The notes under the pieces were generated by a model. It did no database searches. It was given only the letters and a program-made list of their open reading frames with translations, and was not told the origin of the DNA. From NCBI GenBank assembly GCA_036336595.1, contig JAYZFV010000056.1:907-64906 (forward strand): DNA of 64,000 nt, in the 5' to 3' direction. Positions 1 to 54,882 of the stretch are shown here, piece after piece. This DNA comes from Thermoplasmatota archaeon (lineage in GTDB: Archaea > Thermoplasmatota > Poseidoniia > Poseidoniales > Thalassarchaeaceae). Each line of letters begins with the position of its first letter. Positions within the stretch are counted from its first letter, which is position 1. Both the position numbers and the translations under genes were made by a program.

Positions 1-1181
1 CCATCGAACTGGCTTGTGGTGCCCCCCTCACTAGGGGCACCGAGAGGGTGAGTCTGGCCGATGCCGCTGACAGGGTCTTGGCCACGGACCTGGCCTCCAA
101 GGTCGACGATCCTCGCTTTGACAACTCCGCCATGGACGGCTGGGCGGTCAGGGCGGGCGATTGCGCGAGCCCCGGAGCATCTCTGCGCATCGTCGGAACC
201 AGCCAAGCAGGAACCGACCAATCCCTCAGAGTCGGTGAGGGGGAGGCGTGCCGGATAATGACGGGCGCGCCGGTTCCGGAGGGAGCAGACGCGATCGTGA
301 TGATTGAGGACTCGTCCTCAGATGATGTAAACGCCATCGTCAACGGCCCGGCTAGGCCAGGCTACATCCGAAGGAGGGGTGAGAACCTACGAGAGGGGGA
401 CACCGCACTCCTGTCGGGAACGCAGCTCACCCCCGCAGCGCTTTCCCTCGCCGCCACCATGGGATACGGCGAGATCGAAGTCGTTTCCAAGCCGAACGTC
501 GCGGTCATCAGCGTCGGCGACGAGCTAGTCCCTCCAGGCGAGCCCTTGGGGGAGGGGGCGATATACGAGTCCAACACCTTCGGCGTCGCCTCCTTGGTCG
601 AGCGCATGGGTGGCCGGGCACACCGATTCGAAGCCATCCAGGACAGCATGGACGACCTGCGCGCGGCCTTGGACGAGGCAGCGGCAAACTGCGATGCCAT
701 CCTCACCAGCGGGGGGGTCAGCATGGGGCAGTGGGACTTCGTTCGCCGAATCATGGAGGAGGAGGGGGAAGTCCTCTTCTGGAGAGTCAGGATGAGACCG
801 GGCGGCCCTCCACTTTTCGGGCTGTGGAAGGGGACGCCTCTGTTCGGCCTCCCTGGGAATCCGGTGAGCAGCCACGTGGTGTTCACCGTCCTCGTCGCCC
901 CTTGGATGTCAATCTGCATGGGTGCTCACGAGGAGCTGGGCCCAAGGCTCGCCTCCCGTGTGCGGGTGGTCTTGGAGAGCTCGCTCAAGGGAGCACCCGG
1001 CAAACTCTGCCTCCGCCGGATATCGATCCGAACCGAAGGGGATGCCCTCCTCGCCTCCACTCACACCCACCAGGGCAGCGGCAACATCCACAGCATGGTC
1101 GCGCACAACGGGCTGTCCCTGCTCGCCCCCGACACCGATGCCGACGAGGGCGAGGCGATCGACGCGCTGTGGCTCAGATGA
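1..1181 (+). CDS. moeA: Molybdopterin molybdotransferase MoeA (5' partial; frame open to window edge)
   Basis: ORF 48-1181 with no upstream stop in frame. N-terminal FDNSAMDGWAV and GGVSMG motifs of the MoeA/gephyrin E-domain. Alignment to MoeA suggests ~20 aa are missing upstream of the window. Confidence 0.75.
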   Translation, partial: IELACGAPLTRGTERVSLADAADRVLATDLASKVDDPRFDNSAMDGWAVRAGDCASPGASLRIVGTSQAGTDQSLRVGEGEACRIMTGAPVPEGADAIVMIEDSSSDDVNAIVNGPARPGYIRRRGENLREGDTALLSGTQLTPAALSLAATMGYGEIEVVSKPNVAVISVGDELVPPGEPLGEGAIYESNTFGVASLVERMGGRAHRFEAIQDSMDDLRAALDEAAANCDAILTSGGVSMGQWDFVRRIMEEEGEVLFWRVRMRPGGPPLFGLWKGTPLFGLPGNPVSSHVVFTVLVAPWMSICMGAHEELGPRLASRVRVVLESSLKGAPGKLCLRRISIRTEGDALLASTHTHQGSGNIHSMVAHNGLSLLAPDTDADEGEAIDALWLR

Positions 1182-1221
1182 GGGAGTATCGCTAAGAGCG
1201 TCCGATTCCGATTCAACGTCG

Positions 1222-2448
1222 ATGTTTCCCGAATGCATCGAGTGCAGGGGGACCAAGGGGATGTGCGGGATCGACCCATGCCCCCTGCTGGCGGAGGTTA
1301 GGGGCAGGCTCCCCCAACTGGAGCCCACCTCGGTGGGGGAGCTGTCCGGTCCGAGCCCCCCCGCCCTCTTCGTAGGCCGATACGGCTACCCGGATGTAAG
1401 GGCCGGACCTAGCGCCTCTTGGGTACCCGAGGCCTCCCAGAGCGACGACGCAACGGCAAGCGGCGACCCCGCTGAGCTCTTCGGAAGGCCACTGGAGGAG
1501 GTCGCAGCCCGGCACGCCAACCTCATCACCGGAGGCCGGAGGATGACGGTGAGCAGCACAGCCTCGCCAGACGACGTCCTCGAAGCCACCCAGGTCATTG
1601 CGATGTCCTCCGGGAGCGTGGACGTTGAGATGGACTTCGAGCGCCCCATACCGATAGGGGGGAGCCCGACTTTCGACAGCATGAGCACGCCGCTGGGCCC
1701 GTCGGGAGACGTTCTGAGGGCCGAGGTAGTCGGACATGCCAGCATTCCCCGCAAGGTGGATTCCGTGGCCGGGGAGACCGACTTGCCAGCGACCGAGGCC
1801 GCAGGCGAGCTGACCAGCTCAGGCATAGGCGAGGCGCAGATCTCACGACTGCTCTCCTCGGGGATGCTAGGGAGGGAGGGGATGAGGAAGCTCGTTCCCA
1901 CCAGATGGGGAATCACCGCCACCGACGACATGCTCTCGAAGCGGCTCTGGAGCGCTGTCAGGGACCACCCGCCGCTCGACAAGGTCCTGGTGTTCGAGGC
2001 GACCTACCTCGACAACAGGTTCCACGTCATCCTAACCCCCGGCCTCTGGGCATTCCACATGCTCGAGGCTTGGACGCGCGGCTCTGTGTGGACCGAATCC
2101 GGCAAGGTGCTGGGTGACTGGGAGGACCTCGAGCCCCGTTCGGAGTACGCTCACAGGATCACCGGGGCGTACTACTCGGCTCGACTGGCCGTGCTGGAGC
2201 ACATGGACTCCATCCGTCGTTCGGGAGCGTGCCTAGTGTGGAGGGACATCGGGCCCGGATACTGGGCCCCGGTCGGCGTCTGGCTGATCCGAGAGACCAT
2301 GAGGCAGGCGATGAGGTCCACACCGAGGTCGTTCGACTCCCTGGAGCAGGCCATAGGCCACGTCGCTCCCAGGGTCTCTGCCCCCAACGACCTGCGCGAC
2401 TCGTGGTTCGCCAGGAGGGGCAAGCAGACCAGGCTGGACGCGTTCTGA
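1222..2448 (+). CDS. nreA: Archaeal Nre-family protein (DNA repair-associated, COG1602-like)
   Basis: Internal ATG at 1222 of ORF 922-2448. N-terminal zinc-finger-like CIECRGTKGMCGIDPCPLL typical of archaeal Nre. The 100-codon extension upstream is low-complexity and overlaps moeA. Confidence 0.55.
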   Translation: MFPECIECRGTKGMCGIDPCPLLAEVRGRLPQLEPTSVGELSGPSPPALFVGRYGYPDVRAGPSASWVPEASQSDDATASGDPAELFGRPLEEVAARHANLITGGRRMTVSSTASPDDVLEATQVIAMSSGSVDVEMDFERPIPIGGSPTFDSMSTPLGPSGDVLRAEVVGHASIPRKVDSVAGETDLPATEAAGELTSSGIGEAQISRLLSSGMLGREGMRKLVPTRWGITATDDMLSKRLWSAVRDHPPLDKVLVFEATYLDNRFHVILTPGLWAFHMLEAWTRGSVWTESGKVLGDWEDLEPRSEYAHRITGAYYSARLAVLEHMDSIRRSGACLVWRDIGPGYWAPVGVWLIRETMRQAMRSTPRSFDSLEQAIGHVAPRVSAPNDLRDSWFARRGKQTRLDAF

Positions 2449-2524
2449 CGCACTCGCCCCTTTGTGGAGTGAATGAATTCAAGGACGCCCACACCCACGA
2501 TAGGCCGCAGCACGGGGTGATGCC

Positions 2525-5503
2525 TTGCCAGATTGGAAGAAGAACGGCTTCGCAAGAGACGGGTGGATCGAGATCAGGGGAGCCCGGACCCACAACCTCC
2601 AGGGCATCGACGTCAGCATTCCCAGAGGCAAGTTCGTCGTCATCTCCGGGGTGTCCGGCTCAGGCAAGTCGAGCCTCGCTTTCGATACCCTGTACGCCGA
2701 GGGGCAGCGCCGTTACGTGGAGAGCCTCAGCTCCTACGCGAGGCAGTTCCTCGGCCAGATGAAGAAGCCTGACTGCGACTCTATCGAGGGCCTCTCCCCA
2801 GCCATCAGCATCGACCAGAAGCAGGGCAGCCACAACCCGCGCTCCACGGTGGCCACGGTCACCGAGATGATGGACTACCTCAGGCTTCTCTGGGCCCGCA
2901 TCGGGCTGCCGCACTGCCCGGTGTGCGAACGCGAGGTAACCAGGAGGACCGTCCAGGAGATCGTCGATGACGTCCTCTGGCGCTTCGAGGGCCACGGCAT
3001 CGCGATCTGGAGCCCCGCGGTCAGGAACCGCAAAGGTACTCACGCCGACCTGTTCGCCGCCCTCGTGGAGCAGGGGTTCCTCCATGGCAAGGTCAACGGG
3101 AGGGAGGCCGGCTTCGAGGAGCCCCCCGACCTCGAGAAGAACCTGCGTCACGACATCGATGTGCGGGTAGACCGGATGCTGCTCCACGTCTCCAACCGCC
3201 AGCGCCTGACAGAGGCGGCCGAGTCCGGCCTGAGGCTCGGTGCCGGCTCAGTGGCAGTCGAGAGCCTGAGCGCCCCCCATCCCGGCGACGACAACTCGGA
3301 CGAGCAGCGGTTCAGGACCCAGCAGGGTGAGGTGATAGCCTACTCGGAGGAGTTCGCCTGCCCCGAGCACGGCGCCTTCATGCCGGAGATGAGCCCACGG
3401 GTCTTCTCGTTCAACAACCCGCTGGGCGCCTGCCCCTCGTGCCAGGGACTGGGGGTCCAGCGCACCTTCTCCCCCGACCTCGTGATCGACAGGACCGCGA
3501 CCGTTGGGGAGGGCTGCATCAAGCCGTTCCGACGCTCGATGATGTCCAGCTGGTACCGCAGGCAGATGACCCAGACCTGCGACCACTACGGCATCCCCAC
3601 CGACGTACCGTTCGGCGAGATGGACGAGGACGACAGCGACATCCTCCTGCACGGCACGGGCAGCACGGTCATCAACTTCGAGTTCAACTCCGAGAAGGGG
3701 TCATCGTACCGGATGGCCAGGCCGTGGGAGGGCGTGTTCGCTCGCCTGCGCCGCTCCTACACCGACTCCAGCTCCGATCGGACACGCTCCAGGCTGTCCT
3801 CTTACATGACCGACGAGCCGTCCACCCAGTGCGACGGCGACAAGCTCAACGAAGCGGTCAGCCAGGTCACGGTCGGAGGCATATCCCTTCCCGACATCTC
3901 CCGCTGCAGCGTGCTCGAGGCGCTCGCCGCGGTCCAGCACTGGCGCTTGGGGGGGTTGGACGACACCTGGGACAAGCTGGACAGGGACGTCCCGGACAGC
4001 GGGTCCGTGCGCGCCACCGCGCAGCTCGACGAGCGCTCGCTGTACATAGCAAAGGAGATCATCAAGGAGATCGAGTCCAGGCTCCGCTTCCTCGCCCTCG
4101 TCGGGCTGGACTACCTCACGCTCGACCGCCGGGCCAACACGCTATCCGGGGGAGAGTCCCAGAGGATCCGCCTGGCCACCCAGATCGGGTCGAGGCTGAC
4201 TGGGGTCATGTACGTCCTCGACGAGCCCAGCATCGGGCTCCACCCGAGGGACAACGGACGCCTGCTCGAGACGCTCCGCGAGCTCACCGAGCTCGGCAAC
4301 ACCCTCCTCGTCGTCGAGCACGACGAGGCCACTCTCAGGCAGGCCGACTGGCTGGTCGACCTTGGCCCTGGCGCGGGCAAGGAGGGCGGGCACATCGTCG
4401 TCAACGGAACCTTCGAGGAAATGATGGCCAGCGAGGCCAGCGTCACCGCCGCGTACCTCACCGGCAGGGAGCGGATCCCGATCCCCGAGGACCGCGAGAC
4501 GCCCGAGGAGGAGCGTTGGATCACCATCAGGGGGGCGCGCCAGAACAACCTGCAGGACATCGAGGTCCGAATCCCCCTCGGATGCATGATCGCGGTGACC
4601 GGCGTGTCCGGCTCGGGCAAGTCCTCGCTGGTGACCGAGACCCTGGCCCCCTCGCTGCTCCGGGGGCTGCACGGCTCCGATGCGACCCCCGGCAGGATGG
4701 ACTCGATCTCGGGCGTCGATATGGTCGACAAGGCCATCGTCATCGACCAGTCCCCGATCGGCCGGACCCCGCGCTCGAACCCAGCCACCTACACCGGAGC
4801 CTTCACCCCGATCCGCGAGCTGTTCGCCCAGACCAAGCTGGCCAAGGAGCGCGGGTACCCCCCCGGGCAGTTCTCCTTCAACGTCAGAGGGGGGCGCTGC
4901 GAGGCCTGCAGCGGCGCCGGCTCGAAGAAGCTCGAGATGAACTTCCTGCCAGACGTCTGGGTGACCTGTGAGGTCTGCAAGGGCAAGAGGTACACGAGGG
5001 AGACGCTGGAGGTCAAGTGGCGCGGCAAGACCATCCACGACGTGCTGGAGATGAGCGTCGAGGAGGCATGCGGCTTCTTCGCCAACCAGCGGACGACCCA
5101 CAGGATCCTATCCACCGTGAAGGACGTCGGCCTGGGCTACATCCGCCTGGGCCAGCCGGCCACGACGCTGTCCGGCGGCGAGGCGCAACGGGTCAAGCTG
5201 GCCACCGAGCTGCACCGACCGCCCCGCAACCACACGGTCTACATCCTCGACGAGCCGACCACCGGCCTCGCCCTCTCCGACGTCCACCAGCTGATCGACG
5301 TGCTGCTGCGCCTGCGCCGCAACGGCCACACCGTCATCGTGATCGAGCACCACATGGACGTCATCAAGTGCGCCGACTGGATCATCGACCTGGGCCCGGA
5401 GGGGGGCGAGCGCGGCGGGCTGGTGGTCGCCGAGGGGCCGCCCGACCTCGTCGCCAAGGCCCCGGGGAGCTACACCGGCCAGCACCTGGCGGGCTTCGTG
5501 TGA
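2525..5503 (+). CDS. uvrA: Excinuclease ABC subunit A
   Basis: 992 aa. [11 protein letters not shown], two ABC ATPase P-loops ([23 protein letters not shown]; [13 protein letters not shown]), LSGGE signatures and Zn-finger cysteines. Confidence 0.9.
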
Positions 5504-5552
5504 GCGGGTGCCGGGCCAAGCCTTGAGAAGGCGCACCGCATGAGGGTGCCCG

Positions 5553-6308
5553 ATGTACCGCTCCGGCAACCCGGCGCTCAACGACTCGACGTTCGAGAAG
5601 GGCTCCTACCAGGGCGTCAACTGGTGGGACGACTACGAATCCAACCTGATGACCATCGAGGGCACCGCGGAGAAGACCGGGATCCTGCTCCTGATCACCG
5701 CGACGACCGCGCTCGCAACCGCATTCTCGATGCCGGACTCTCTTCCCCTGATCCTGGTCGGGGCCCTTGGCGGCTTCATCGTCGCGATGATGGTGATCTT
5801 CTCCGGCTCGATGAACCCGATGCTCATCTGCTCCTACGCCGCCTTGGAGGGCCTCGCCCTCGGGGGCATCACGTGGATCTTCGAAGTGGGCCTCGGGCTC
5901 CCGGGGATCGGCATCCTCGCTGCCCTCCTGACATTCCTCATCCTGGGGGTGATGATCGCGATATACAGGGCCGGGCTGATTCAGTGGGACAGGAACATGG
6001 CCATCGCGGTCTACTCCGCCCTGGGGGCGATCGTGCTGGTCTACCTCATCTCCATCATCGGGCTGTTCGTCGGCTTCGAGGTCCCGCACATCCACGGCTC
6101 GGGGCCGATCGGCATCGCGTTCTCCCTGTTCGTCGTCGGGATCGGAGCGCTGTGCCTCGTCGCGGACTTCGACTTCATCGAGAAGGGGGTGGAGAGGGGC
6201 GCGCCCAAGCAGCTCGAGTGGCGGGCCGCCTTCGGGCTCATGGTCACGCTGGTATGGCTCTACCTCGAGATCCTCAAGCTCCTAGCGAAGCTGGCCGCGA
6301 GGCGTTAG
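5553..6308 (+). CDS. Multi-pass membrane protein, Bax inhibitor-1/YccA-like family (tentative)
   Basis: 251 aa with ~7 predicted TM helices. N-terminal SGNPALNDSTF is reminiscent of actinobacterial BI-1/YccA-family proteins. Family assignment is from memory only. Confidence 0.4.
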   Translation: MYRSGNPALNDSTFEKGSYQGVNWWDDYESNLMTIEGTAEKTGILLLITATTALATAFSMPDSLPLILVGALGGFIVAMMVIFSGSMNPMLICSYAALEGLALGGITWIFEVGLGLPGIGILAALLTFLILGVMIAIYRAGLIQWDRNMAIAVYSALGAIVLVYLISIIGLFVGFEVPHIHGSGPIGIAFSLFVVGIGALCLVADFDFIEKGVERGAPKQLEWRAAFGLMVTLVWLYLEILKLLAKLAARR

Positions 6309-6311
6309 GCG

Positions 6312-7553
6312 ATGAGCGAGTCCCGGGCCCTGGAGATGGACCGCCAGGACCCACTGGCCGCATACCGGGAGCGCTTCCACATCCCCCGGGCCGAATCGGG
6401 CGAGGAGGAGATCTACCTCAGCGGCAACTCTCTGGGCCTCCAGCCCCGCAGCATCCGGGAGGCACTGGACCAGGAGATGGGGGACTGGGCCCGGCTGGGC
6501 GTGGGGGGCCACTTCGGGGCCAAGCACCCCTGGTACAGCTACCACGAGGACCTCTGCGGTCCCCTGGGGCGGCTCGTCGGCTCCCAGGCCCACGAGGTGG
6601 TGCCCATGGGAGCGCTCACCAGCAACCTGCACCTGGCCATGGTGTCCTTCTACCGCCCGACCCGGGAGCGCCCCCGGATCCTCATCGAGGCCGGCGCGTT
6701 CCCCTCGGACCGCTACGCCGTCGAGAGCCAGGCCCGCTTCCACGGACTCGACCCCTCCGAGGCCGTGGTCTCACTCGGTGAGGAGGGGGTCCTGCTCGAC
6801 GAGGCCGAGATCGAGGCCTACCTGGAGGCGGAGGGCCCGAGCATCGCCCTGGTTATGGTCGGCGGCGTCCACTACTACACCGGGCAGCTGTTCGACATGG
6901 AGCGCATCGCCAGGGCCGCGCACCGGGCGGGCGCGACCGTGGGCTTCGACCTGGCCCACGCCATCGGCAACGTTCCCCTGCGGCTCCACGACTGGGGCGC
7001 CGACTTCGCCGCCTGGTGCTCCTACAAGTACCTCAACTCGGGGCCCGGGGGCGTCGCCGGCCTATTCGTCCACGACCGGCATTCCGGCAGCGACCTGCCC
7101 CGCTTCAACGGCTGGTGGGGCACGGACCCCGAGACCCGCTTCCAGATGGGGGAGTTCGAGGCACAGAGGGGCGCCGCCGCCTGGCAGGTCTCCAACGCCC
7201 CGGTGATGTCCATGGCCTGCCACCGGGCGGCCCTGGCCATCCACGACGAGGCGGGCATGCCCGCGCTGCGGGAGAAGAGCCTGGCCATGACCGACTTCCT
7301 TCTGGCCCAGCTGGACGAGCTCCCGGAGGGCCTCATCACCGTCATCAGCCCCCGGCAGGCCGATCGCCGGGGCTCCCAGGTCAGCCTGAGGATTCACGGC
7401 GACGCCCCCGGCCTCCATCGGGCCCTGGTGGCGGCCGGCGTGGCCTGCGACCTCCGCAACCCGGACGTGATCCGATTGGCGCCAGCCCCCCTCTACAACC
7501 GCTTCCACGAGCTCTGGCGCGTCGCCGAGATCCTCAGGGAGCATCTTTCGTGA
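6312..7553 (+). CDS. kynU: Kynureninase
   Basis: 413 aa. LSGNSLGLQP and HPWYSYHED motifs of the PLP-dependent kynureninase family. Confidence 0.8.
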   Translation: MSESRALEMDRQDPLAAYRERFHIPRAESGEEEIYLSGNSLGLQPRSIREALDQEMGDWARLGVGGHFGAKHPWYSYHEDLCGPLGRLVGSQAHEVVPMGALTSNLHLAMVSFYRPTRERPRILIEAGAFPSDRYAVESQARFHGLDPSEAVVSLGEEGVLLDEAEIEAYLEAEGPSIALVMVGGVHYYTGQLFDMERIARAAHRAGATVGFDLAHAIGNVPLRLHDWGADFAAWCSYKYLNSGPGGVAGLFVHDRHSGSDLPRFNGWWGTDPETRFQMGEFEAQRGAAAWQVSNAPVMSMACHRAALAIHDEAGMPALREKSLAMTDFLLAQLDELPEGLITVISPRQADRRGSQVSLRIHGDAPGLHRALVAAGVACDLRNPDVIRLAPAPLYNRFHELWRVAEILREHLS

Positions 7554-7589
7554 GTTCAGACTCACGAGAGTCTAGGCCCACTAGGTGGG
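7554..7589. terminator. Two tandem perfect hairpins between convergent genes (AGACTC-ACGA-GAGTCT; CCCAC-TAG-GTGGG)
   Basis: Read directly at 7558-7573 and 7577-7589, in the 46-nt gap after the kynU stop and before the stop of the minus-strand BNR gene. Function as terminators is inferred. Confidence 0.3.
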
Positions 7590-7598
7590 TCTGCTACG

Positions 7599-9059
7599 CT
7601 ACAGAGTGCTGGGCCCGCCCATTGGCAGCGGGGCCAGCGGCAGGTCTCGCAGCGTCGGCCCGATGGCCAGGGTGCCGAAGATGCCTATCTCGCCGCCGAC
7701 GTTGTGCGCGAGGCCGAACCAGGCCCTGCCGTGCTGGTCGATGATGACGTCGTTGAAGTCGCCGAAGCCCCCGCACCTGTTGAACCCGCAGTCGGCGGTG
7801 GTGTCGAGGGGGTCGCCCCACGCGTTCACCTGCACCGTGGTCATCAGCGGCATCGGGCCGAAGGCGTCGGTGATGACGGTCAGGTACCCGTTCCAGGTGT
7901 CCCCGCCCGAGTCCCCGAGGTAACCGAGGGCCACCTTGCCTGCCCCGCCGGCGGTCAGCACCGGGAAGCCGGTGCCATTCAGGCCGATTGGCGGGGCGAC
8001 CATCAGCGGGTCGCTCCAGGTGTCGCCCTCGTCCCTCGAGTACGCGTAGTAGGGCATGTTGTCGAAGCCGATCCACATCGCGTGGACGTTGTCCTCGGAG
8101 TCCGGGTAGACCTGCGCCTCCTCGAAGTTCCAGGTCTCCGCGGTTCCCGTGGTCTCGGTTGGAAGCGGGTGCTCGGTCCAGGTTATCCCGCCGTTCGTGC
8201 TGCGGTAGATCGAGTAGCCCTCGCCCCCGTCGCAGCCCCTGTTGCCGCGGTAGAAGTTGCCGTTCTCGCTGCCCATGATGTGCCCGGTCAGCCCCCCGCT
8301 GTTGCAATCCGTGGGCGCCCCGGGGAGCTCGGGGCCCCAGGTCAGCCCGCCGTCCTGGCTGGCAGCGCAGACCGGGTAGGGGTAGTTGCCGTTGACGCAG
8401 AACACCCACGTGGTCTGGTGGAATGCGGCGGGGTAGGGGGCGGAGGCGATGGTCTGGTGGTCCTGCACCGACCAGCCGGTGGCCACCGAGGGGCCGGTCC
8501 AGCTCTGCCCTTCGTTGTCCGACCACTCGACGGTCATCCCCAGCAGGGCGTGCATGTCGAACTTCATGACGCGGTCCGTCCACGGGTCGACGTACACGTA
8601 CGGGTCGTTGGAGTTCGCCACCGGCAGGAACGCGCTGTAGACGTCCTCGCACGCGTACTCGCTCAGGTTGGTCATCCCGACCATGCCCGAGCACCGCACG
8701 ATCGCCGTGGAGCCCGCCGCCCCGTTGCCCCAGCTGGTCATGTAGAGGTTGTCGGAGGAGGTGACGCCGATGGTCGGCTCGAACGTGGTCATTCCGATCC
8801 CGTAGTATGTGCCGACGGCGCAGACGGGCGCGTTGTTACCCACCAGCACCGAGCTCCCGTTGAGCACGTTGGAGGCCTTCGTGGCGTCGGTCGCGTTGGA
8901 GTAGTGGTACCAGGTCGTGTTGCTGATGAGGCCCCCCGACGCCTCGCACAGGGTGTCGAAGACGTTGACCTCCTCGACGACCTCCTCGTCCTCCCCGAAG
9001 CAGCCCGAGAGGGAGGCCAGTATGAACAGGGAGACCATGCCGCAGGCTGCGACGCGCAT
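7599..9059 (-). CDS. Secreted BNR/Asp-box repeat lipoprotein (sialidase/Ycf48-like beta-propeller), paralog 1
   Basis: 486 aa. Signal peptide MRVAACGMVSLFILASLSGC with lipobox-like Cys. Four S-x-D-x-G-x-T-W Asp-box repeats (SDNEGQSWT, SQDGGLTWG, STNGGITWT, SRDEGDTWS). Confidence 0.6.
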   Translation of the reverse strand: MRVAACGMVSLFILASLSGCFGEDEEVVEEVNVFDTLCEASGGLISNTTWYHYSNATDATKASNVLNGSSVLVGNNAPVCAVGTYYGIGMTTFEPTIGVTSSDNLYMTSWGNGAAGSTAIVRCSGMVGMTNLSEYACEDVYSAFLPVANSNDPYVYVDPWTDRVMKFDMHALLGMTVEWSDNEGQSWTGPSVATGWSVQDHQTIASAPYPAAFHQTTWVFCVNGNYPYPVCAASQDGGLTWGPELPGAPTDCNSGGLTGHIMGSENGNFYRGNRGCDGGEGYSIYRSTNGGITWTEHPLPTETTGTAETWNFEEAQVYPDSEDNVHAMWIGFDNMPYYAYSRDEGDTWSDPLMVAPPIGLNGTGFPVLTAGGAGKVALGYLGDSGGDTWNGYLTVITDAFGPMPLMTTVQVNAWGDPLDTTADCGFNRCGGFGDFNDVIIDQHGRAWFGLAHNVGGEIGIFGTLAIGPTLRDLPLAPLPMGGPSTL

Positions 9060-9104
9060 GTAATCCCGGCTGAGCCCTGCCTACATCAGTCCAACGGAGC
9101 CGCG

Positions 9105-10622
9105 TCAACTCAGGAGCAGCGTCGAGTTCCCCCCGGGTGGGAGGGGCTCCAGGTAGCCCAAGTCCCCGTACAGCGCCGGCCCCTCCGTCAGGGTCCCTAT
9201 CACCGCCTCCTCGAAGCCAGCGGCGTTGTGCGCGAGCGCGATCCAGGGCCTGCCCCCGTCATCGAGCTCGACGTCGATGAAGTCCCCGAAGCCGCCGCAC
9301 CGTATGTTGCCGCAGTCCGGGCCGGTGTCCAGGGGGTCGTCGGGGTGGTTGACCGCCACGCTCGTGATCAGCGGGCGCTCGGCGAAGGCGTCGGTCATGA
9401 TCGCCATGTAGCCGGACCAGCCGCCCGTGCTGGTGTTCTCGTCGTAGTTGCTCGACTCGCCTATGTAGCCCAGGACGACCCTGCCCTCGGCCCCGGCGAA
9501 GACCGTCGGAAAACCCGTCTCGTTGACCCCTGGGGCTGCCACCATCATCGGCGGGCTCCAGGTCTCGCCCTGGTCACGGGAGTTGGCGTACCACGGCATC
9601 AGGTCGTCCCCGATCCAGGTCGCGTGGACGTTGCCCCCGTCGTCCACCGCCGTCGCGACCTCGTGCGAGTGCCACCCGTCCTGCATGCCGACCTCGGTGG
9701 TGATCGTGTGCTCGCTCCAGGAGTACCCGCCGTCCAGAGAGCGGTAGACCGCCGGGCCCTCGCACGACGGGTTGCCCCGGTAGACTGCCCCGTCTATCCC
9801 CCCTGCCACGTGGCCGTGCAGGCCCGAGCACTGCGGGAAGCTGCTGCTCGGGTAGCCCAGCCTCTGGACGTCCCACGACAGCCCGCCGTTGAGAGAGCGC
9901 GAGCACTGGGCGCCGAGGGCTGGGGACCCGGTGTTGATGCAGTACACGTAGATGACGTCGTGGAACGCCGTGACCCCCGGAGGCGGGGGCATCGAGGCTA
10001 TGCTCTGGTGGTCCTGCGTGACGTAGTAGCCCTCGACGGGGTAGGGGATGCTCCAGCTGTCGCCGTCGTTGTCGGAGTACTCGACGAACATGGCGGCCAG
10101 CGCGTGCATGTCGAACTTGACCAGCCTGTCCGTGAACTTGTCGACGTAGATGTACGGGTCGTTCGAGTTGGGCGTCTGCCCCGAGTCCTCGTCGATCTGT
10201 CCGAAGGGGCCTACGTCCTCCCAGGTCTGGCCATTGTCCCTCGAGCGGATTATGTGCGTGCCGTCCCCGAGGCCGTTCCACTGGGTGAAGAATATGGCAC
10301 CAGAAGAGGTGACGCCGATGGTCGGCTCGAAAGTGTCGTACCCTGTCCCGTAGTAAGTGGCGTTGGCGAAGTACGGCGTGCTGTTGCCAGTCAGGTCGGC
10401 AGTGATGTTGGCCGCAGAGACCGCCCCTGCGCTGGTGGCGTCCACCGGCCAGGGCTCGGCGACCGTCCCAGGATAGTGGTACCACGTGGTGATTGGGACC
10501 TGCTGGTCGAATTCGAAGGCCCCCCTTTCCTCCTCGGTGACCTCCTCGTCCTCCCACCACATGCACCCCGTCGCCATCGAGCTCAGCATCAGCAGGGAGA
10601 GCAGTTGAGCGGTCTTGGCCAC
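9105..10622 (-). CDS. Secreted BNR/Asp-box repeat lipoprotein, paralog 2
   Basis: GTG start at 10622 (VAKTAQLLSLLMLSSMATGC signal with lipobox-like Cys), just after the stop of the upstream epimerase; an alternative ATG lies at 10589. Asp-boxes SDNDGDSWS, SLNGGLSWD, SLDGGYSWS, SRDQGETWS. Clearly paralogous to 7599-9059. Confidence 0.55.
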   Translation of the reverse strand: MAKTAQLLSLLMLSSMATGCMWWEDEEVTEEERGAFEFDQQVPITTWYHYPGTVAEPWPVDATSAGAVSAANITADLTGNSTPYFANATYYGTGYDTFEPTIGVTSSGAIFFTQWNGLGDGTHIIRSRDNGQTWEDVGPFGQIDEDSGQTPNSNDPYIYVDKFTDRLVKFDMHALAAMFVEYSDNDGDSWSIPYPVEGYYVTQDHQSIASMPPPPGVTAFHDVIYVYCINTGSPALGAQCSRSLNGGLSWDVQRLGYPSSSFPQCSGLHGHVAGGIDGAVYRGNPSCEGPAVYRSLDGGYSWSEHTITTEVGMQDGWHSHEVATAVDDGGNVHATWIGDDLMPWYANSRDQGETWSPPMMVAAPGVNETGFPTVFAGAEGRVVLGYIGESSNYDENTSTGGWSGYMAIMTDAFAERPLITSVAVNHPDDPLDTGPDCGNIRCGGFGDFIDVELDDGGRPWIALAHNAAGFEEAVIGTLTEGPALYGDLGYLEPLPPGGNSTLLLS

Positions 10623-51512: not shown

Positions 51513-52094
51513 TCATCCCAACTCTTGAATCAGTTTGTAGATTTTGTACGGAAGTAGGGATCTGTTCACGGGGGTAACTTCGAGAATTCGCGCATCGTCT
51601 CTCCTTCTGATGTCCTGCAGTAAGGGGTGACGACTCTTCTTGTGCAGCGTCAGCAAGGTCGGAAGGTCGTTGTTCAGTGCTACCCTAACAGCGTTCACGA
51701 AGCCCTCGCTCTCCACAGTGAACTTACCCACCTCGTCAATTACCATGATTTCGCAATTACCGATGCTGTCGAGAATAGCCGGAACGCCGACCCTGTCGAT
51801 TTCACTAGGGTCGATTCCGAAGCCGAGAACCCTGTTTCTGGAGTCGATCCCTCGGTGGGCCATCACGCCTTTCTCACCTGTTAGGATGTTGACGCAAGCG
51901 TACCCGACTCTCTCTCCGTTCTCTATGACGGCCTCGCACCTCATTCCTCCGATGATGTGCTCAGGGGGCACCGGACCACGCGATCGACGTACTCCGCCTC
52001 CTTCTTCGGATATCATATCGATGACTTTCTGCAGAACCGCCGACTTACCAGATCTAGGCAGACCTGTGATACCAATTTTCGGATTGATACCCAT
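51513..52094 (-). CDS. Nucleoside-triphosphatase, THEP1 family (COG1618)
   Basis: 193 aa. Walker A GLPRSGKS, Walker B MVIDEVG, archaeal NTPase pattern. Confidence 0.7.
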   Translation of the reverse strand: MGINPKIGITGLPRSGKSAVLQKVIDMISEEGGGVRRSRGPVPPEHIIGGMRCEAVIENGERVGYACVNILTGEKGVMAHRGIDSRNRVLGFGIDPSEIDRVGVPAILDSIGNCEIMVIDEVGKFTVESEGFVNAVRVALNNDLPTLLTLHKKSRHPLLQDIRRRDDARILEVTPVNRSLLPYKIYKLIQELG

Positions 52095-52224
52095 TATGCT
52101 CTCCTCTGAATCCTCGCTCCCGCAACAGGAACGTCTAGCGTATGTGAAGCACCGATATTAATTCATTTGGATTAGAAGGGCGTACATTTCCGGAAGGAGG
52201 AAAAGGAAATCCGAAGTGAGTAAA

Positions 52225-54246
52225 TCAGATTTCATCATTATTCCCTAATAGAGAAATTGGCGCAGCGCTCTCAAGCGGCGGGAAGGGCAGCGTCTCAATT
52301 TCGTAGTTGTTGACGTTGTTGTTAGCCGCCCATGCCTTGGACCAGAGATCCAACTCCTCAGAGTTGAGATGCGATGCGAGCACGGCCAAACCTTCCTCAA
52401 GGTTCCCAAACTCAGCAACCAGCCTTTCGACGACTTGGCTTGGCAGGTCAAGGAAACTCACAGAGTTCCCGAGTACGCATCCGGATGGTATGACTGCCCA
52501 TAGAAGCCGTCTTTTCAATTGGGGGTTGATTATCGCCTGGCAGGCGATTCTCGGAGGCCCTCGCATGTTGGTGGGCCCATTCCACATCGCCTCCTTCCAC
52601 TGGACACCCTCTGGAACACTCGGGTCGAAAGCGGGATGCCGAAGCCTCACCAAGTCACCATCCAGTTCAATGTGCGTACCGCGGATGAAAGGAGACCCGC
52701 CTGAATCGACGTCCCAGTAAGATATGCAGTCTGACCAATTTCCACGATCAACCTCCCCCACCCTCACACGTATGGCCTTACCACTGGGGTTTAGCCAAGT
52801 ACCCTCTTCGACAAGGCGGGGTTTGTCTGCTAAGGTACCGATAGCTTTCAGCGTCTCGCTCCGTTCGTGTTCGGACCTGGGCATTTTTGGCACCGCCCAC
52901 GAGGTATCGGTCCAGATTGACCACGGACCACGCTCCAGCTCGAGGAAGGGGGACTTTTTATCGAGACCCTTGCGAGCGGAGATGTCTCTTGATCGAAGCG
53001 GACCAAAACTCGTGAGGACCTCCGTAGTGCCAGCGACGGTGATACCAAGCACGGAAACGCCTTGGGCCCCACCAAATGGGAGTTGACGGTCTTCGGGGAA
53101 TGACCAAACGCTATCCCACTCGTTCTGCGAGACTATCAGCTTCCTAAGTGGAGCGCTACTCTTCTCACGAAGGACAGACTCAGGGACGACCATCCTGACC
53201 CGGCCGCCCTCTTGGCTAAGTTGAAGGGAGCGCTCAATGTATAGTCTGTACAGGTTGACATTACCCTTGATTGCCGAGAACCGAGCGCTTCCGTCAGGAC
53301 CCTTGATTTGGCGTAGTTCTTTGGATAGTTGTTTGCGCAACTGACTACCTTCGGGGTGACCTCGAAACCTGTCTTTGATTCTAAGCCAGGGAGGTCTTGA
53401 AACTAACAGTCTGGGTTTTTCGTTCCACGGCCACTCTCCTCGCAGGGGGTCACAACATCGAACATTGCTCTCGATAATGAGATTAGCCTCTGACCTACCT
53501 ATGAGTGACTCGTCCCCCTCTCCTTCGAGATCCACAAGTCTCAGGCGTGCTAGAACAATCAGGAGCCTCTTCCGAGCGCTCTCCACTGCGATATCTGAAG
53601 TATCCACCAGTTGGAATCCTTCCAGGAGCCTGAGCGTGTCTTCTTTTCGCTGCTGGACATCCATGCCACCGCATCTGTCCGCATGCATCCTGAGGATACG
53701 ATCAGCGAATAGACCCGCCCCTACAGAGGGGTCAGCAAAGGGAAGGGGGATTCCGGATAGGGTGCGCGACTCATCCGATTCGTGACTGTCGTCACCTTCA
53801 GATGATTGCCCTCTGATGTTCTCATTGAACTGTTCAGCGAAGACTCTGAAACTCGGCGGCAGTGCAGTGAGTGAGAGTATAGCTGGCGGCTCCTTCTTTC
53901 GGTTTCTGCCATGGTGCAACTCGTCGCATAGTATGGCATCTACGAACTTCGCTGGTGTGGCATAGACACCACGAGGCGAACGCCCATCGCTCTCCGCCTC
54001 GTGCCTTGCCAGGAGATGGTCAAGGACGGAACCAGGATCGCTCAGCAACCCCGCTGGTAACGTGGGCCAACCCCTAGGAAGCGTTGCGGCAATTGGTTGG
54101 CCCTGCTTAGTGGCCAGTAGCCACGAATCTAGCCATATCTCGATTTGTTGAATCCTGCCAGAGCACTCGTGATCGAGCCTTGCATACCATCCGGAAGTCT
54201 CACTCGTCATGATACGCATACCGCCCAAAGCCGCATCTTCTTTCAA
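52225..54246 (-). CDS. Eco57I/TaqI-family gamma-class N6-adenine DNA methyltransferase-like protein with C-terminal TRD
   Basis: 673 aa. Motif X GVYATPAKFVDAIL and motif I ADPSVGAGLF. Motif IV position reads VSRPPW instead of canonical (G)NPP(Y/F/W). C-terminal LAVLASHLNSEELDLW resembles the TaqI_C/Eco57I TRD tail. Confidence 0.55.
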   Translation of the reverse strand: MKEDAALGGMRIMTSETSGWYARLDHECSGRIQQIEIWLDSWLLATKQGQPIAATLPRGWPTLPAGLLSDPGSVLDHLLARHEAESDGRSPRGVYATPAKFVDAILCDELHHGRNRKKEPPAILSLTALPPSFRVFAEQFNENIRGQSSEGDDSHESDESRTLSGIPLPFADPSVGAGLFADRILRMHADRCGGMDVQQRKEDTLRLLEGFQLVDTSDIAVESARKRLLIVLARLRLVDLEGEGDESLIGRSEANLIIESNVRCCDPLRGEWPWNEKPRLLVSRPPWLRIKDRFRGHPEGSQLRKQLSKELRQIKGPDGSARFSAIKGNVNLYRLYIERSLQLSQEGGRVRMVVPESVLREKSSAPLRKLIVSQNEWDSVWSFPEDRQLPFGGAQGVSVLGITVAGTTEVLTSFGPLRSRDISARKGLDKKSPFLELERGPWSIWTDTSWAVPKMPRSEHERSETLKAIGTLADKPRLVEEGTWLNPSGKAIRVRVGEVDRGNWSDCISYWDVDSGGSPFIRGTHIELDGDLVRLRHPAFDPSVPEGVQWKEAMWNGPTNMRGPPRIACQAIINPQLKRRLLWAVIPSGCVLGNSVSFLDLPSQVVERLVAEFGNLEEGLAVLASHLNSEELDLWSKAWAANNNVNNYEIETLPFPPLESAAPISLLGNNDEI

Positions 54247-54273
54247 GGGTTGTATGGGAGTAGTGGCTGCGGG

Positions 54274-54882
54274 TCAGCCCCCAATCCCGAAGATATCTTG
54301 GCCCAACTCGATGACCATTCTCCGCTGCAGCAGCCAGGCCAAAGCCTCATCGATCTCGTCCACCCTGATACCCAACGGTTCCAGAGCATCACTGATCTCA
54401 TCAAAATGAATTTCGGCATCGGCCGCACCGGCTTCTTCAATTATACTCATGATGTGCTCTGAGACGATAGTGAGTAGCGGGTCATCTTCGGTCCCTAGTG
54501 CACCCAAATCAACGAGGGGGACGACCTCTTCAGGCTGCTGGCTCTCCCCACTCTTGACTTGAGTTGCCGGCTCGTAGACATCGAACAGGTTCCTTTGATG
54601 GGGGTCTGTCCATGAAGTCCCCTGCGCAATCTCTCGCTTCCTCTTCAGCTTCCTCACTAACGCCTCTATTCTGTGAAGTCGTTGTTCAAGTCTGAGACGC
54701 TCCCTACCGAGGTGGACCTCGACCAATTCAAGCTCTTCCGTCGCCCTCTCGTCCAGCCACTTGGACAGATCCCATTGAGGTTCGAGTCGCAGCATCGTCT
54801 CCCACAGTCGTGCAATGGAATCTGGAAGAGTCCTGACGTCAATTCTTGGCCCCTTCTTTCCGTCCTCAGGAACACGGTCCAT
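54274..54882 (-). CDS. Hypothetical acidic coiled-coil protein, co-oriented 27 nt upstream of the MTase-like gene
   Basis: 202 aa. Predicted coiled-coil LVEVHLGRERLRLEQRLHRIEALVRKLKRKRE and an acidic C-terminus. No recognisable domain. Confidence 0.35.
   Translation of the reverse strand: MDRVPEDGKKGPRIDVRTLPDSIARLWETMLRLEPQWDLSKWLDERATEELELVEVHLGRERLRLEQRLHRIEALVRKLKRKREIAQGTSWTDPHQRNLFDVYEPATQVKSGESQQPEEVVPLVDLGALGTEDDPLLTIVSEHIMSIIEEAGAADAEIHFDEISDALEPLGIRVDEIDEALAWLLQRRMVIELGQDIFGIGG

What the first reader, a model, noticed from the sequence alone, without database searches (positions are those of the whole stretch)
52225..54882. Gamma-class N6-adenine MTase-like protein with non-canonical motif IV, paired with an acidic coiled-coil protein, and no nuclease partner in sight
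The 673-aa protein has unmistakable Eco57I/TaqI-family motif X (GVYATPAKFVDAIL) and motif I (DPSVGAGLF), and a TaqI_C-like C-terminal TRD (LASHLNSEELDLW). At the position where motif IV (NPPY/F/W) is expected I can only find VSRPPW, that is Ser-Arg in place of Gly-Asn. The catalytic Asn is close to invariant, so this could be inactive or repurposed as a DNA-binding or sensor module. Alternatively it is a variant active site. It is co-transcribed (27-nt gap) with an upstream 202-aa acidic coiled-coil protein that has no recognisable domain, and no nuclease motifs are evident in the neighbours. The region's GC (~52-54%) is below backbone. This is a candidate orphan epigenetic or defence-related two-gene module; BREX PglX and type IIG/L enzymes are relatives of this MTase family.
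Basis: partly seen in the sequence, partly recalled or inferred. Interest (0 to 1): 0.6.

Follow-up and report, generated by a model that had tools for sequence, protein, structure and literature searches.

The report
Archaeal DNA methylase with altered active-site
A DNA-adenine methyltransferase gene that Marine Group II archaea inherit vertically has, here and in most close relatives, replaced its catalytic asparagine with a strictly conserved arginine, so it probably binds DNA with little or no methylation, and it is not a mobile defence module.

Summary
The gene at 52225-54210(-) most likely starts at the ATG at 54210, giving 661 aa rather than 673. It encodes a full-length gamma-class N6-adenine DNA methyltransferase fold (CamA/TaqI-like, Alw26I-related). 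Its only motif IV candidate is RPPW, and the Arg aligns with Asn in 67/67 outgroup enzymes.

This is not an island or a defence module. It is a core gene of the Poseidoniales (Marine Group II archaea), found in 317 species genomes and flanked by the same housekeeping genes.

The ancestral state is NPPW (136 sequences, including MGIIa). One large MGIIb clade carries Arg (175), Lys (4) or His (1). Arg is kept through six synonymous codons, and dN/dS is 0.03-0.14. An NPPW clade is nested among the Arg lineages, so the site has switched more than once.

SAM-contact residues are intact in this genome's subclade but eroded in others. The 202-aa acidic gene is adjacent throughout MGIIb, yet its MGIIa orthologue lies 5.5 kb away. 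The downstream NTPase_1 gene is the more constant neighbour.

Best reading: a repurposed DNA-binding, base-flipping protein that is catalytically weakened or dead. An active variant enzyme is not excluded.

The parts
52225..54210 (-). Methyltransferase-like gene, 661 aa counted from the ATG at 54210 (the mechanical ORF runs on to a TTG at 54246). It is the Poseidoniales-wide orphan gamma-class N6-adenine DNA methyltransferase family, here in the Arg (RPPW) state.
   Evidence: ORF. Start inferred from 14 homologues. AlphaFold2 model pLDDT 89.2, pTM 0.88. Foldseek best hits are CamA, M.BseCI, BrxX and M.TaqI. Profile against PDB: CamA E 1e-42. An identical protein is in NCBI as MEE2650644.1, 'hypothetical protein'.
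53386..53397 (-). Arg272 (codon AGA) replaces the catalytic Asn.
   Evidence: Translation. Alignment column is N in 67/67 outgroup enzymes. Across the family the column is R 175, N 136, K 4, H 1. Arg codons seen are AGA, AGG, CGC, CGT, CGA and CGG.
53953..53970 (-). Motif X, GVYATP (residues 81-86), matching CamA Gly28-Pro33. This is the lid of the cofactor pocket and one wall of the flipped-adenine cage.
   Evidence: Translation. Mapping through the profile alignment to CamA. Roles of the CamA residues from PMC8187626.
53707..53739 (-). Motif I, FADPSVGAGLF (residues 158-168). D160 corresponds to CamA Asp60, which holds the amino group of SAM/SAH.
   Evidence: Translation. Mapping. D160 is present in 175/175 Arg-type sequences.
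52276..53013 (-). C-terminal target-recognition domain (about residues 400-645), with the family-wide blocks RIACQ, VLGNSVS, LNSEELDLW and NNNVNNYEIE.
   Evidence: Foldseek aligns about 630 columns to CamA and M.BseCI, including their recognition domains. Consensus with the outgroup. Translation of the last block.
54274..54882 (-). Upstream 202-aa acidic protein (pI 4.67) of unknown function. It has a conserved N-terminal region, a variable acidic linker and a conserved C-terminal ~65-aa domain. It is a syntenic neighbour and is possibly co-transcribed with the methyltransferase-like gene.
   Evidence: ORF. 948 homologues, all unnamed. Alignment. Directly upstream in 80/81 loci. Its MGIIa orthologue (32% identity, E 5e-30) lies 5.5 kb from the methyltransferase. 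No significant Pfam or PDB match.
51513..52094 (-). Downstream NTPase_1 (THEP1-type P-loop NTPase) gene, the most constant neighbour of the methyltransferase across the order.
   Evidence: Pfam PF03266, E 2e-35. Directly downstream in 81/85 loci; three loci are cut by a contig end and one has a ~900-nt gap.

Best explanation
This is the vertically inherited orphan gamma-class N6-adenine DNA methyltransferase of Marine Group II archaea, in a derived state where the motif IV Asn has become Arg. Shown: the fold, the motif order and the residue-by-residue correspondence to CamA; the order-wide synteny; the ancestral NPPW state; strict maintenance of Arg; strong purifying selection on the whole protein. 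Inferred: the protein still recognises a DNA sequence through its TaqI/CamA-like C-terminal domain. It still flips a base into the aromatic cage formed by Y83 and W275, because motifs IV-VIII stay almost invariant. Arg272 puts a cation where Asn normally sits. That position is next to D160, the acid that holds the SAM amino group, and next to where the SAM sulfonium would lie. The expected effects are weaker SAM binding and lower nucleophilicity of the adenine N6. Methyl transfer is therefore lost or strongly reduced, and the protein acts as a sequence-specific DNA-binding, base-flipping factor (a reader or regulator rather than a writer). The 202-aa acidic protein is a neighbour by synteny and may be co-transcribed, but it is not a defining partner.
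For: Fold and homology: AF2 model pLDDT 89; Foldseek hits to CamA, M.BseCI, BrxX and M.TaqI over ~630 columns; profile match to CamA at E 1e-42 with G81/Y83/T85, D160, D203, D254, R272 and W275 mapping to CamA G28/Y30/T32, D60, D114, D149, N165 and Y168. Asn is universal at this column in 67/67 outgroup enzymes and 136 N-type orthologues. Motif IV is defined as (D/N/S)PP(F/W/Y), and a degenerate version marks the inactive METTL14 (PMC10915109). Arg is selected rather than drifting: R 175, K 4, H 1, no other residue, with six synonymous Arg codons. The gene is not decaying: dN/dS is 0.03-0.14. The target-side motifs stay conserved: motif IV flank entropy is 0.014 in the Arg type. The cofactor side is relaxed in several Arg/Lys lineages but not in Asn lineages. 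The Thr matching CamA Thr32 (a SAH contact) is Pro in 111/175 Arg-type sequences against T in 135/136 N-type. G164A occurs in 7/14 and F168V in 13/14 of one subclade. D203 is lost in 5/175. Motif X is dismantled in the Lys clade. The gene is core and not mobile: 317 species genomes carry it with the same flanking genes.
Against: No biochemical or methylome evidence was available. In the window's own subclade every SAM-contact residue except Asn is intact, and across all Arg-type sequences the SAM motifs are still more conserved than random columns (p about 0.01). An NPPW clade (MGIIb-O1) is nested inside the Arg lineages in both the gene tree and a flanking-gene tree (52/60 and 36/40 NJ bootstraps). 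If that is a reversal, the Arg-state scaffold must have stayed catalytically competent. In CamA the Asn165 side chain donates a hydrogen bond to adenine N1, while main-chain carbonyls hold N6 (PMC8187626). Arg, Lys and His are all donors, so they might substitute for Asn. No atomic coordinates were accessible, so the Arg272-D160 geometry is not measured.
Confidence: 0.45

Rival explanations
1. It is still an active N6-adenine DNA methyltransferase with a variant active site. Arg272 (or Lys/His) takes over the hydrogen-bond-donor role towards adenine N1 that Asn165 plays in CamA, and main-chain carbonyls activate N6. The N/R switch would tune rate or regulation rather than abolish methylation.
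For: All SAM-contact and cage residues other than Asn are intact in the window's subclade, and are identical between the O1 NPPW clade and its Arg sister clade. PPW and motifs V-VIII are invariant. Only donor residues (N, R, K, H) occur; Asp never does, although it is one mutation from Asn. The nested NPPW clade suggests the scaffold remained competent. CamA geometry: PMC8187626.
Against: Every outgroup enzyme examined has Asn at this position (67/67), and published definitions of motif IV allow only D/N/S there (PMC10915109). A cation beside the SAM sulfonium and amino group and at adenine N1 should hinder both SAM binding and attack by N6 (inference). Cofactor-side residues are eroding in several Arg/Lys lineages. 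Published marine metagenome methylomes report no lineage-wide asymmetric m6A motif for MGII beyond GATC and CGCG (PMC8919816).
Confidence: 0.3
2. The pocket has been converted to another ligand or chemistry. The basic residue would bind an anionic group (a phosphate of a nucleotide-type ligand, or a carbonyl-bearing flipped base such as G or T), or the enzyme would act on a different atom or on RNA. The constant downstream P-loop NTPase might be a functional partner.
For: Only basic residues are tolerated at position 272. The adenine- and ribose-binding acids D254 and D203 are kept, whereas the methionine-side contacts (N272, T85) are the ones that change. NTPase_1 is directly downstream in 81/85 loci, even where the other neighbours differ.
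Against: Purely inferential. The aromatic cage and the DNA-type recognition domain are unchanged relative to the NPPW orthologues; only five type-diagnostic columns exist in the whole protein. The NTPase adjacency is equally present in NPPW lineages, so it does not track the switch.
Confidence: 0.12
3. It is a defence or restriction-modification component: an orphaned RM methylase, a type IIG/L relative, or a BREX PglX-like enzyme acting with the acidic protein.
For: Weak similarity to type II/IIG methyltransferase models in PADLOC (best E 3e-16) and to BrxX by fold. PGAP named one MGIIa orthologue 'BREX-1 PglX'.
Against: 13 bits against the PglX model (cut-off 500) and 64 bits against the Alw26I-family model (cut-off 353.5). 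There is no nuclease domain in the protein and no REase or BREX gene within 8 kb on either side in six contexts. Inheritance is strictly vertical with conserved synteny in 317 species genomes. The acidic partner has no PADLOC hit.
Confidence: 0.03
4. It is a decaying pseudogene or relic with no function.
For: Loss of the canonical catalytic residue.
Against: The reading frame is intact in all genomes examined. dN/dS is 0.03-0.14. Arg is maintained through synonymous codon turnover. Mean identity among 175 Arg-type sequences is 72%.
Confidence: 0.01

Closest known systems
CamA (Clostridioides difficile orphan N6-adenine DNA methyltransferase; PDB 7LNI/7LT5)
   Same: Best structural and profile match (Foldseek E 1e-17; profile E 1e-42). 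Same gamma-class motif order, the same N-terminal GxYxTP lid, a C-terminal recognition domain, and orphan, lineage-wide, vertical inheritance.
   Different: CamA has NPPY and is an active CAAAAA methylase. Here motif IV is RPPW. Sequence identity is about 13%. This protein has an extra conserved ~75-aa N-terminal helical region, and its host is archaeal.
Alw26I/Eco31I/Esp3I-type type II methyltransferases (NCBIfam TIGR02987) and related metagenomic enzymes
   Same: Nearest sequence relatives outside the family (E 1e-17 to 1e-19). They share the blocks NLYRLFIER, IVPxSxLxDxSS, RIACQ, VLGNS, LNSxLL and NNHVNNYEI.
   Different: Those enzymes all carry NPP[YFW], are typically parts of RM systems, and are patchily distributed. 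This protein scores 64 bits against a cut-off of 353.5.
M.TaqI (gamma-class N6-adenine methyltransferase)
   Same: Same fold and the same two-domain architecture (Foldseek TM to target 0.65-0.68). Query residues 322-376 (673-aa numbering) align to TaqI 132-186.
   Different: TaqI has NPPY (Asn105) and belongs to an RM system.
METTL14 (EPPL) in the METTL3-METTL14 complex
   Same: A natural methyltransferase-fold protein with a degenerate motif IV, retained under selection for nucleic-acid binding rather than catalysis (PMC10915109). This is the closest functional analogy for the best explanation.
   Different: METTL14 is from an unrelated subfamily (MT-A70, RNA substrate, eukaryotic). It also lost the aromatic residue and needs an active paralogue. 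Here PPW is intact, and no paralogue was seen in the locus.
BREX PglX/BrxX
   Same: Shares the Eco57I-type gamma-class methyltransferase domain; distant fold match.
   Different: PglX is ~1200 aa and sits in a six-gene BREX operon. None of those genes is present here, and the PglX model score is 13 bits against a cut-off of 500.
Lineage-conserved orphan methyltransferases of archaea (e.g. Halobacteria; PMC6471742, abstract only)
   Same: Orphan methyltransferases conserved across an archaeal lineage, in contrast to patchy RM genes (abstract).
   Different: The abstract seen does not mention any change of the catalytic motif.

Membership tests
Gamma-class N6-adenine DNA methyltransferases (Eco57I/TaqI/CamA type) | Linear motif order X-I-II-III-IV-V-VIII followed by a C-terminal target-recognition domain | tested here: met
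   Profile alignment to CamA covers all motifs in order. Foldseek aligns ~630 columns to CamA and M.BseCI.
Gamma-class N6-adenine DNA methyltransferases (Eco57I/TaqI/CamA type) | SAM-binding acids of motifs I, II and III, and the glycine-rich motif I loop | tested here: met
   D160, D203, D254 and G164/G166 are present in the window protein and map to CamA D60, D114 and D149.
Gamma-class N6-adenine DNA methyltransferases (Eco57I/TaqI/CamA type) | Catalytic motif IV (D/N/S)PP(Y/F/W) | tested here: not met
   RPPW. Arg sits in the column that is N in 67/67 outgroup enzymes, and there is no alternative motif elsewhere in the protein.
Gamma-class N6-adenine DNA methyltransferases (Eco57I/TaqI/CamA type) | SAM-dependent methyl transfer to adenine N6 in a specific DNA sequence | not testable with these tools
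   Needs expression plus methylome sequencing, or in-vitro assays.
Pfam PF07669 Eco57I | Score at or above the gathering threshold (25.3 bits) | tested here: met
   31.1 bits, E 3e-7, but only profile positions 102-168 of 171 (residues 322-387) are matched.
NCBIfam TIGR02987 Alw26I/Eco31I/Esp3I methyltransferases | Score at or above the curated cut-off (353.5 bits) | tested here: not met
   64 bits, E 1e-17. A relative, not a member.
BREX-1 PglX | Model score at or above 500 bits, and a BREX operon context (BrxA/B/C, PglZ, BrxL) | tested here: not met
   13 bits. Neighbours are Iso_dh, NTPase_1, GCV_H, RNase H, PPS_PS and similar, in six contexts.
Type II restriction-modification system | A cognate restriction endonuclease encoded nearby | tested here: not met
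   No nuclease domain or defence hit in the neighbours. The same housekeeping neighbours recur across 85 loci.
Pseudo-methyltransferase (METTL14-like inactive paralogue) | Degenerate catalytic motif, with the gene kept under purifying selection | tested here: met
   RPPW. dN/dS 0.03-0.14.
Pseudo-methyltransferase (METTL14-like inactive paralogue) | Loss of cofactor binding | tested here: inconclusive
   SAM-contact residues are intact in the window's subclade but eroded in the R_B, R_F and Lys subclades.
Pseudo-methyltransferase (METTL14-like inactive paralogue) | Works with an active paralogous catalytic subunit | not tested
   Only the 64-kb window and ±6-10 kb loci were examined. No second copy was seen there, and whole genomes were not searched.

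The most novel reading that the evidence does not exclude
Arg272 is a gain of function rather than a loss. In this reading, the writer's base-flipping pocket in most MGIIb archaea has been converted into a reader or sensor of a specific DNA site, or into an enzyme with altered chemistry. The site would then toggle between Asn and Arg during MGIIb evolution, by a reversal or by three or more convergent changes. That would be a natural on/off (or mode) switch of an order-wide epigenetic enzyme in some of the ocean's most abundant archaea.
Probability: 0.3. Interest if true: 0.75.

Novelty: new variant of a known kind. Interest (0 to 1): 0.55.

Why it matters
Marine Group II archaea are among the most abundant planktonic archaea and remain uncultured, so their core genes of unknown function are worth assigning.

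This gene offers a natural experiment. NPPW and RPPW orthologues sit in the same genomic slot and differ at only five diagnostic positions. That makes the role of the motif IV Asn directly testable, along with the question of how a DNA methyltransferase becomes a non-catalytic DNA-binding protein.

It also yields a concrete prediction for existing long-read marine metagenomes: a lineage-wide asymmetric m6A motif should be present in NPPW genomes and absent from RPPW genomes. Finally, it corrects database names such as 'BREX-1 PglX' and 'hypothetical protein'.

Tried and rejected
1. The first AlphaFold2 run used a shallow 15-sequence alignment and gave an unusable model (pLDDT 50). It was replaced by an 82-sequence alignment (pLDDT 89).

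3. Partner protein: Pfam, NCBIfam, PADLOC and PDB profile searches gave only sub-threshold hits (DUF494, RPA_C, RhsFi).

4. A literature search for RPPW, KPPW, RPPY, KPPY, RPPF and HPPW returned nothing about methyltransferases. No listed paper from the Poseidoniales / DNA methyltransferase / orphan search mentioned Poseidoniales.

5. The supplements of PMC8919816 are not held. Those of PMC9516812 list only CGCG, TCGCGA and an unassigned GGTAG motif for MGIIA MAGs.

6. My first NJ tree, with a single outgroup, suggested one N-to-R event with the NPPW O1 clade basal. Better outgroup sampling and an independent flanking-gene tree contradicted this, so I dropped the single-origin claim.

7. A first comparison suggested SAM-motif relaxation throughout the Arg clade. 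With a broader N-type sample the effect is modest and specific to subclades.

8. The horizontal-transfer or island reading was rejected on synteny and on the trivial GC difference.
Full report
**1. What is in the sequence**

The two ORFs exist on the minus strand: 52225-54246 (673 aa from a TTG) and 54274-54882 (202 aa). Fourteen homologues at 67-96% identity all begin at MTSETSGWYARLDH. The real start is therefore most likely the ATG at 54210, giving 661 aa and a 63-nt spacer to the upstream gene.

The local GC (0.53-0.55) is barely below the neighbouring kilobases (0.55-0.58) and does not mark an island.

**2. Family and fold**

- Pfam Eco57I passes its threshold but covers only the part downstream of motif IV.
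- NCBIfam gives 64 bits to the Alw26I/Eco31I/Esp3I methyltransferase model (cut-off 353.5) and 13 bits to BREX PglX (cut-off 500).
- An exhaustive HMMER search of 1.8 billion representatives shows a tight family. There are only two other full-length representatives at the 50% clustering level. The next hits follow after a large gap (E about 1e-19) and are ordinary type II methyltransferases, all carrying NPP[YFW].
- With an 82-sequence alignment, AlphaFold2 gave a confident model (pLDDT 89.2, pTM 0.88).
- The best Foldseek matches over about 630 columns are CamA, M.BseCI, BrxX/PglX and M.TaqI.
- A profile of the same alignment hits CamA at E 1e-42.

That profile alignment gives a residue-level map between this protein and CamA:

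| This protein | CamA |
|---|---|
| G81 / Y83 / T85 | Gly28 / Tyr30 / Thr32 |
| D160 | Asp60 |
| D203 | Asp114 |
| D254 | Asp149 |
| R272 | Asn165 |
| W275 | Tyr168 |

The published CamA structures (PMC8187626) assign these roles:

- The three Asp residues hold the amino group, ribose and adenine of the cofactor.
- Thr32 hydrogen-bonds the aminocarboxypropyl part of the cofactor.
- Tyr30 and Tyr168 sandwich the flipped adenine.
- The Asn165 side chain bonds adenine N1.
- The carbonyls of Pro166 and Gly28 hold N6.

**3. The motif IV substitution is real**

In the 82-sequence alignment, position 272 is Asn in 67/67 outgroup enzymes and the two prolines are invariant. The protein has no other [DNS]PP[YFW] and no other xPP[YFW].

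**4. It is a core gene of an archaeal order, not a mobile module**

The organism is a Thalassarchaeaceae (MGIIb) member of the Poseidoniales. An identical protein is in NCBI as a hypothetical protein of a Thermoplasmatota MAG.

A scan of one genome per GTDB species found relatives in 317 genomes. The best 80 are all Poseidoniales.

A homologue at 67% identity, on a 734-kb contig, has the same gene order: PriL, DUF373, QRPTase, PPS_PS, Iso_dh, the 201-aa gene, the methyltransferase, NTPase_1, GCV_H, RNase H. The same holds across 85 loci.

No nuclease, BREX or other defence gene lies within 8 kb on either side in six contexts examined gene by gene. The second refutation criterion (a constant REase neighbour) is also not met.

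**5. Evolution of the site**

A search seeded with the most divergent orthologue returned 119 relatives. They include Ca. Poseidonia and Poseidoniaceae (MGIIa), and all carry NPPW.

In a 316-sequence family alignment the column reads N 136, R 175, K 4, H 1. Asn is therefore ancestral, and the basic residues are confined to the core of MGIIb.

Arg is encoded by AGA, AGG, CGC, CGT, CGA and CGG in different lineages. This means Arg itself has been maintained through synonymous turnover. No non-basic replacement occurs.

Only five columns in the whole protein distinguish N-type from R-type sequences: 14, 212, 218, 272 and 313.

Pairwise dN/dS is 0.03-0.14 for R-type, 0.02-0.07 for N-type and 0.07 for K-type pairs.

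My first tree suggested a single N-to-R change. With proper outgroup sampling, the MGIIb-O1 NPPW clade falls inside the Arg/Lys lineages, as sister to a 'VCRPPW' subclade (52/60 NJ bootstraps). An independent tree of five flanking genes rooted on MGIIa agrees (36/40).

So one of two things happened. Either Arg arose once and reverted to Asn in O1, which needs two nucleotide changes, or Asn changed to Arg at least three times. These are NJ trees, and the rooting rests on long branches, so this point needs maximum-likelihood confirmation.

**6. Which parts of the active site are still constrained**

The target-side motifs (IV flank, V, VI, VIII) are nearly invariant in all types. Motif IV flank entropy is 0.006 in N-type and 0.014 in R-type sequences.

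The cofactor side differs by lineage:

| Subclade | State of the SAM/pocket residues |
|---|---|
| O1 NPPW clade and its Arg sister clade | Identical at every SAM/pocket residue except 272 |
| The window's subclade (R_D) | All contacts intact |
| R_B | G164A in 7/14, F168V in 13/14 |
| R_F | The Thr32-equivalent is Pro in 14/14 |
| Lys clade | Motif X replaced (YATP changed to GSIQ or similar) |

Over all sequences, T85 is Thr in 135/136 N-type sequences, but Pro in 111 and Thr in 62 of the 175 R-type sequences. D203 is lost in 5/175 R-type sequences.

Relative to background, SAM-motif entropy is 0.40 in N-type and 0.53 in R-type sequences. It remains below random column sets in both. The relaxation is real but modest and patchy.

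**7. The neighbours**

The 202-aa acidic protein (pI 4.67) has 948 unnamed homologues. It is directly upstream in 80/81 loci whatever the N/R/K state. No AT-rich box is apparent by eye in the 63-nt spacer (not scanned), so co-transcription in MGIIb is plausible but untested.

In MGIIa, however, its orthologue (215 aa, 32% identity, E 5e-30) stays next to Iso_dh, 5.5 kb and 11 genes from the methyltransferase. There, and in three other NPPW lineages, TerB-like genes lie directly upstream instead. The pairing is therefore a feature of MGIIb genome layout and is not order-wide.

I could not identify the partner's fold.

The NTPase_1 gene is directly downstream in 81/85 loci, including the lineages where everything else has changed.

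**8. Mechanism**

Shown: the fold, the residue mapping, the conservation pattern, purifying selection and the vertical inheritance.

Inferred: the recognition domain and the aromatic cage are still used, because they remain invariant. Arg is not a neutral placeholder, because only basic residues are tolerated.

A guanidinium at the Asn position lies next to D160 and to the place of the SAM amino and sulfonium groups, and at adenine N1. This should disfavour SAM binding and lower N6 reactivity.

I therefore favour a catalytically dead or strongly attenuated, sequence-specific DNA-binding and base-flipping protein, at probability 0.45. METTL14 (EPPL) is the nearest functional analogy (PMC10915109).

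The main rival, at 0.30, is an active variant enzyme. Three points support it:

- In CamA the Asn side chain acts as a hydrogen-bond donor to N1, a role that Arg, Lys or His could fill.
- All other catalytic residues are intact in this genome's subclade.
- The nested NPPW clade is easiest to explain if the scaffold stayed competent.

A change of ligand or substrate gets 0.12. Defence and pseudogene readings are effectively excluded.

**9. Link to published methylomes (a lead only)**

Marine metagenome methylomes report GATC in nearly all archaeal MAGs, plus sporadic CGCG, GTAC and GAAAC in Euryarchaeota (PMC8919816).

In an MGIIA MAG they report an asymmetric GGTAG motif for which no methyltransferase could be assigned (PMC9516812). 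An asymmetric 5-bp m6A motif is what a CamA/Alw26I-like enzyme would be expected to make. The NPPW orthologue of MGIIa is thus a candidate for it, but I could not test this.

**10. Verdict**

This is a new variant of a known kind: an order-wide orphan gamma-class adenine methyltransferase whose catalytic Asn has been replaced by a selected Arg in most MGIIb archaea, with evidence that the site has switched more than once. Interest is 0.55.

Noticed in passing
window 51513-52094 (-), and L001-L085: The NTPase_1 (PF03266, THEP1-type) gene is directly downstream of the methyltransferase in 81/85 loci. This includes MGIIa and the high-GC lineages where the upstream genes and the more distal downstream genes differ. 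It is a more constant neighbour than the 202-aa gene. A functional link is possible but untested.
   Followed up: partly
L082 3019-3971; L083 7070-7926; L084 6481-7842; L085 4130-5017: In NPPW lineages outside core MGIIb, one or two TerB-like (PF05099/DUF533) genes sit directly upstream of the methyltransferase, in the slot that the 202-aa gene occupies in MGIIb.
   Followed up: partly
L083 1809-2456: The MGIIa orthologue of the 202-aa acidic protein (215 aa, 32% identity) stays divergently next to Iso_dh, as in the window, but lies 5.5 kb from the methyltransferase. The acidic gene's stable linkage is to Iso_dh.
   Followed up: yes
window 1-10500: GC is 0.64-0.70 here against 0.53-0.61 in the rest of the window. 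The region encodes Nre (PF04894/PF04895), UvrA, a kynureninase-like aminotransferase and BNR-repeat proteins. The cause of the compositional step was not examined.
   Followed up: partly
P0481 (Ca. Poseidonia sp., L083 8001-9995): NCBI names this MGIIa orthologue 'BREX-1 system adenine-specific DNA-methyltransferase PglX'. The locus has no BREX genes and the protein is 664 aa, so the name looks like an over-annotation.
   Followed up: yes
P0069 (cluster of 6 sequences): One lineage inside the Arg clade has HPPW (VSHPPWLRIKDRFRGHP), a third basic residue at the catalytic position.
   Followed up: no
L036 and L042 (both from MAG CAXEUQ01, ERR599032_concoct_73): One MAG carries two different Arg-type copies (67% and 59% identity to the query) on separate contigs. 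This is more likely a mixed bin than a true paralogue pair.
   Followed up: no
L082 and L084: The most divergent NPPW orthologues come from contigs with ~70% GC (measured for L082 only). They have two Ser/Thr protein kinase genes inserted between NTPase_1 and GCV_H. One contig is 3.0 Mb, which is large for this group.
   Followed up: no
window 52095-52224: The spacer after the methyltransferase stop holds T-rich runs with a TTCCGGAA palindrome. Further on there is an AT-rich AATTAATAT box about 75 nt upstream of the NTPase_1 start and a GAGGAG about 12 nt upstream. By eye this looks like a terminator followed by a separate promoter. It was not tested.
   Followed up: no
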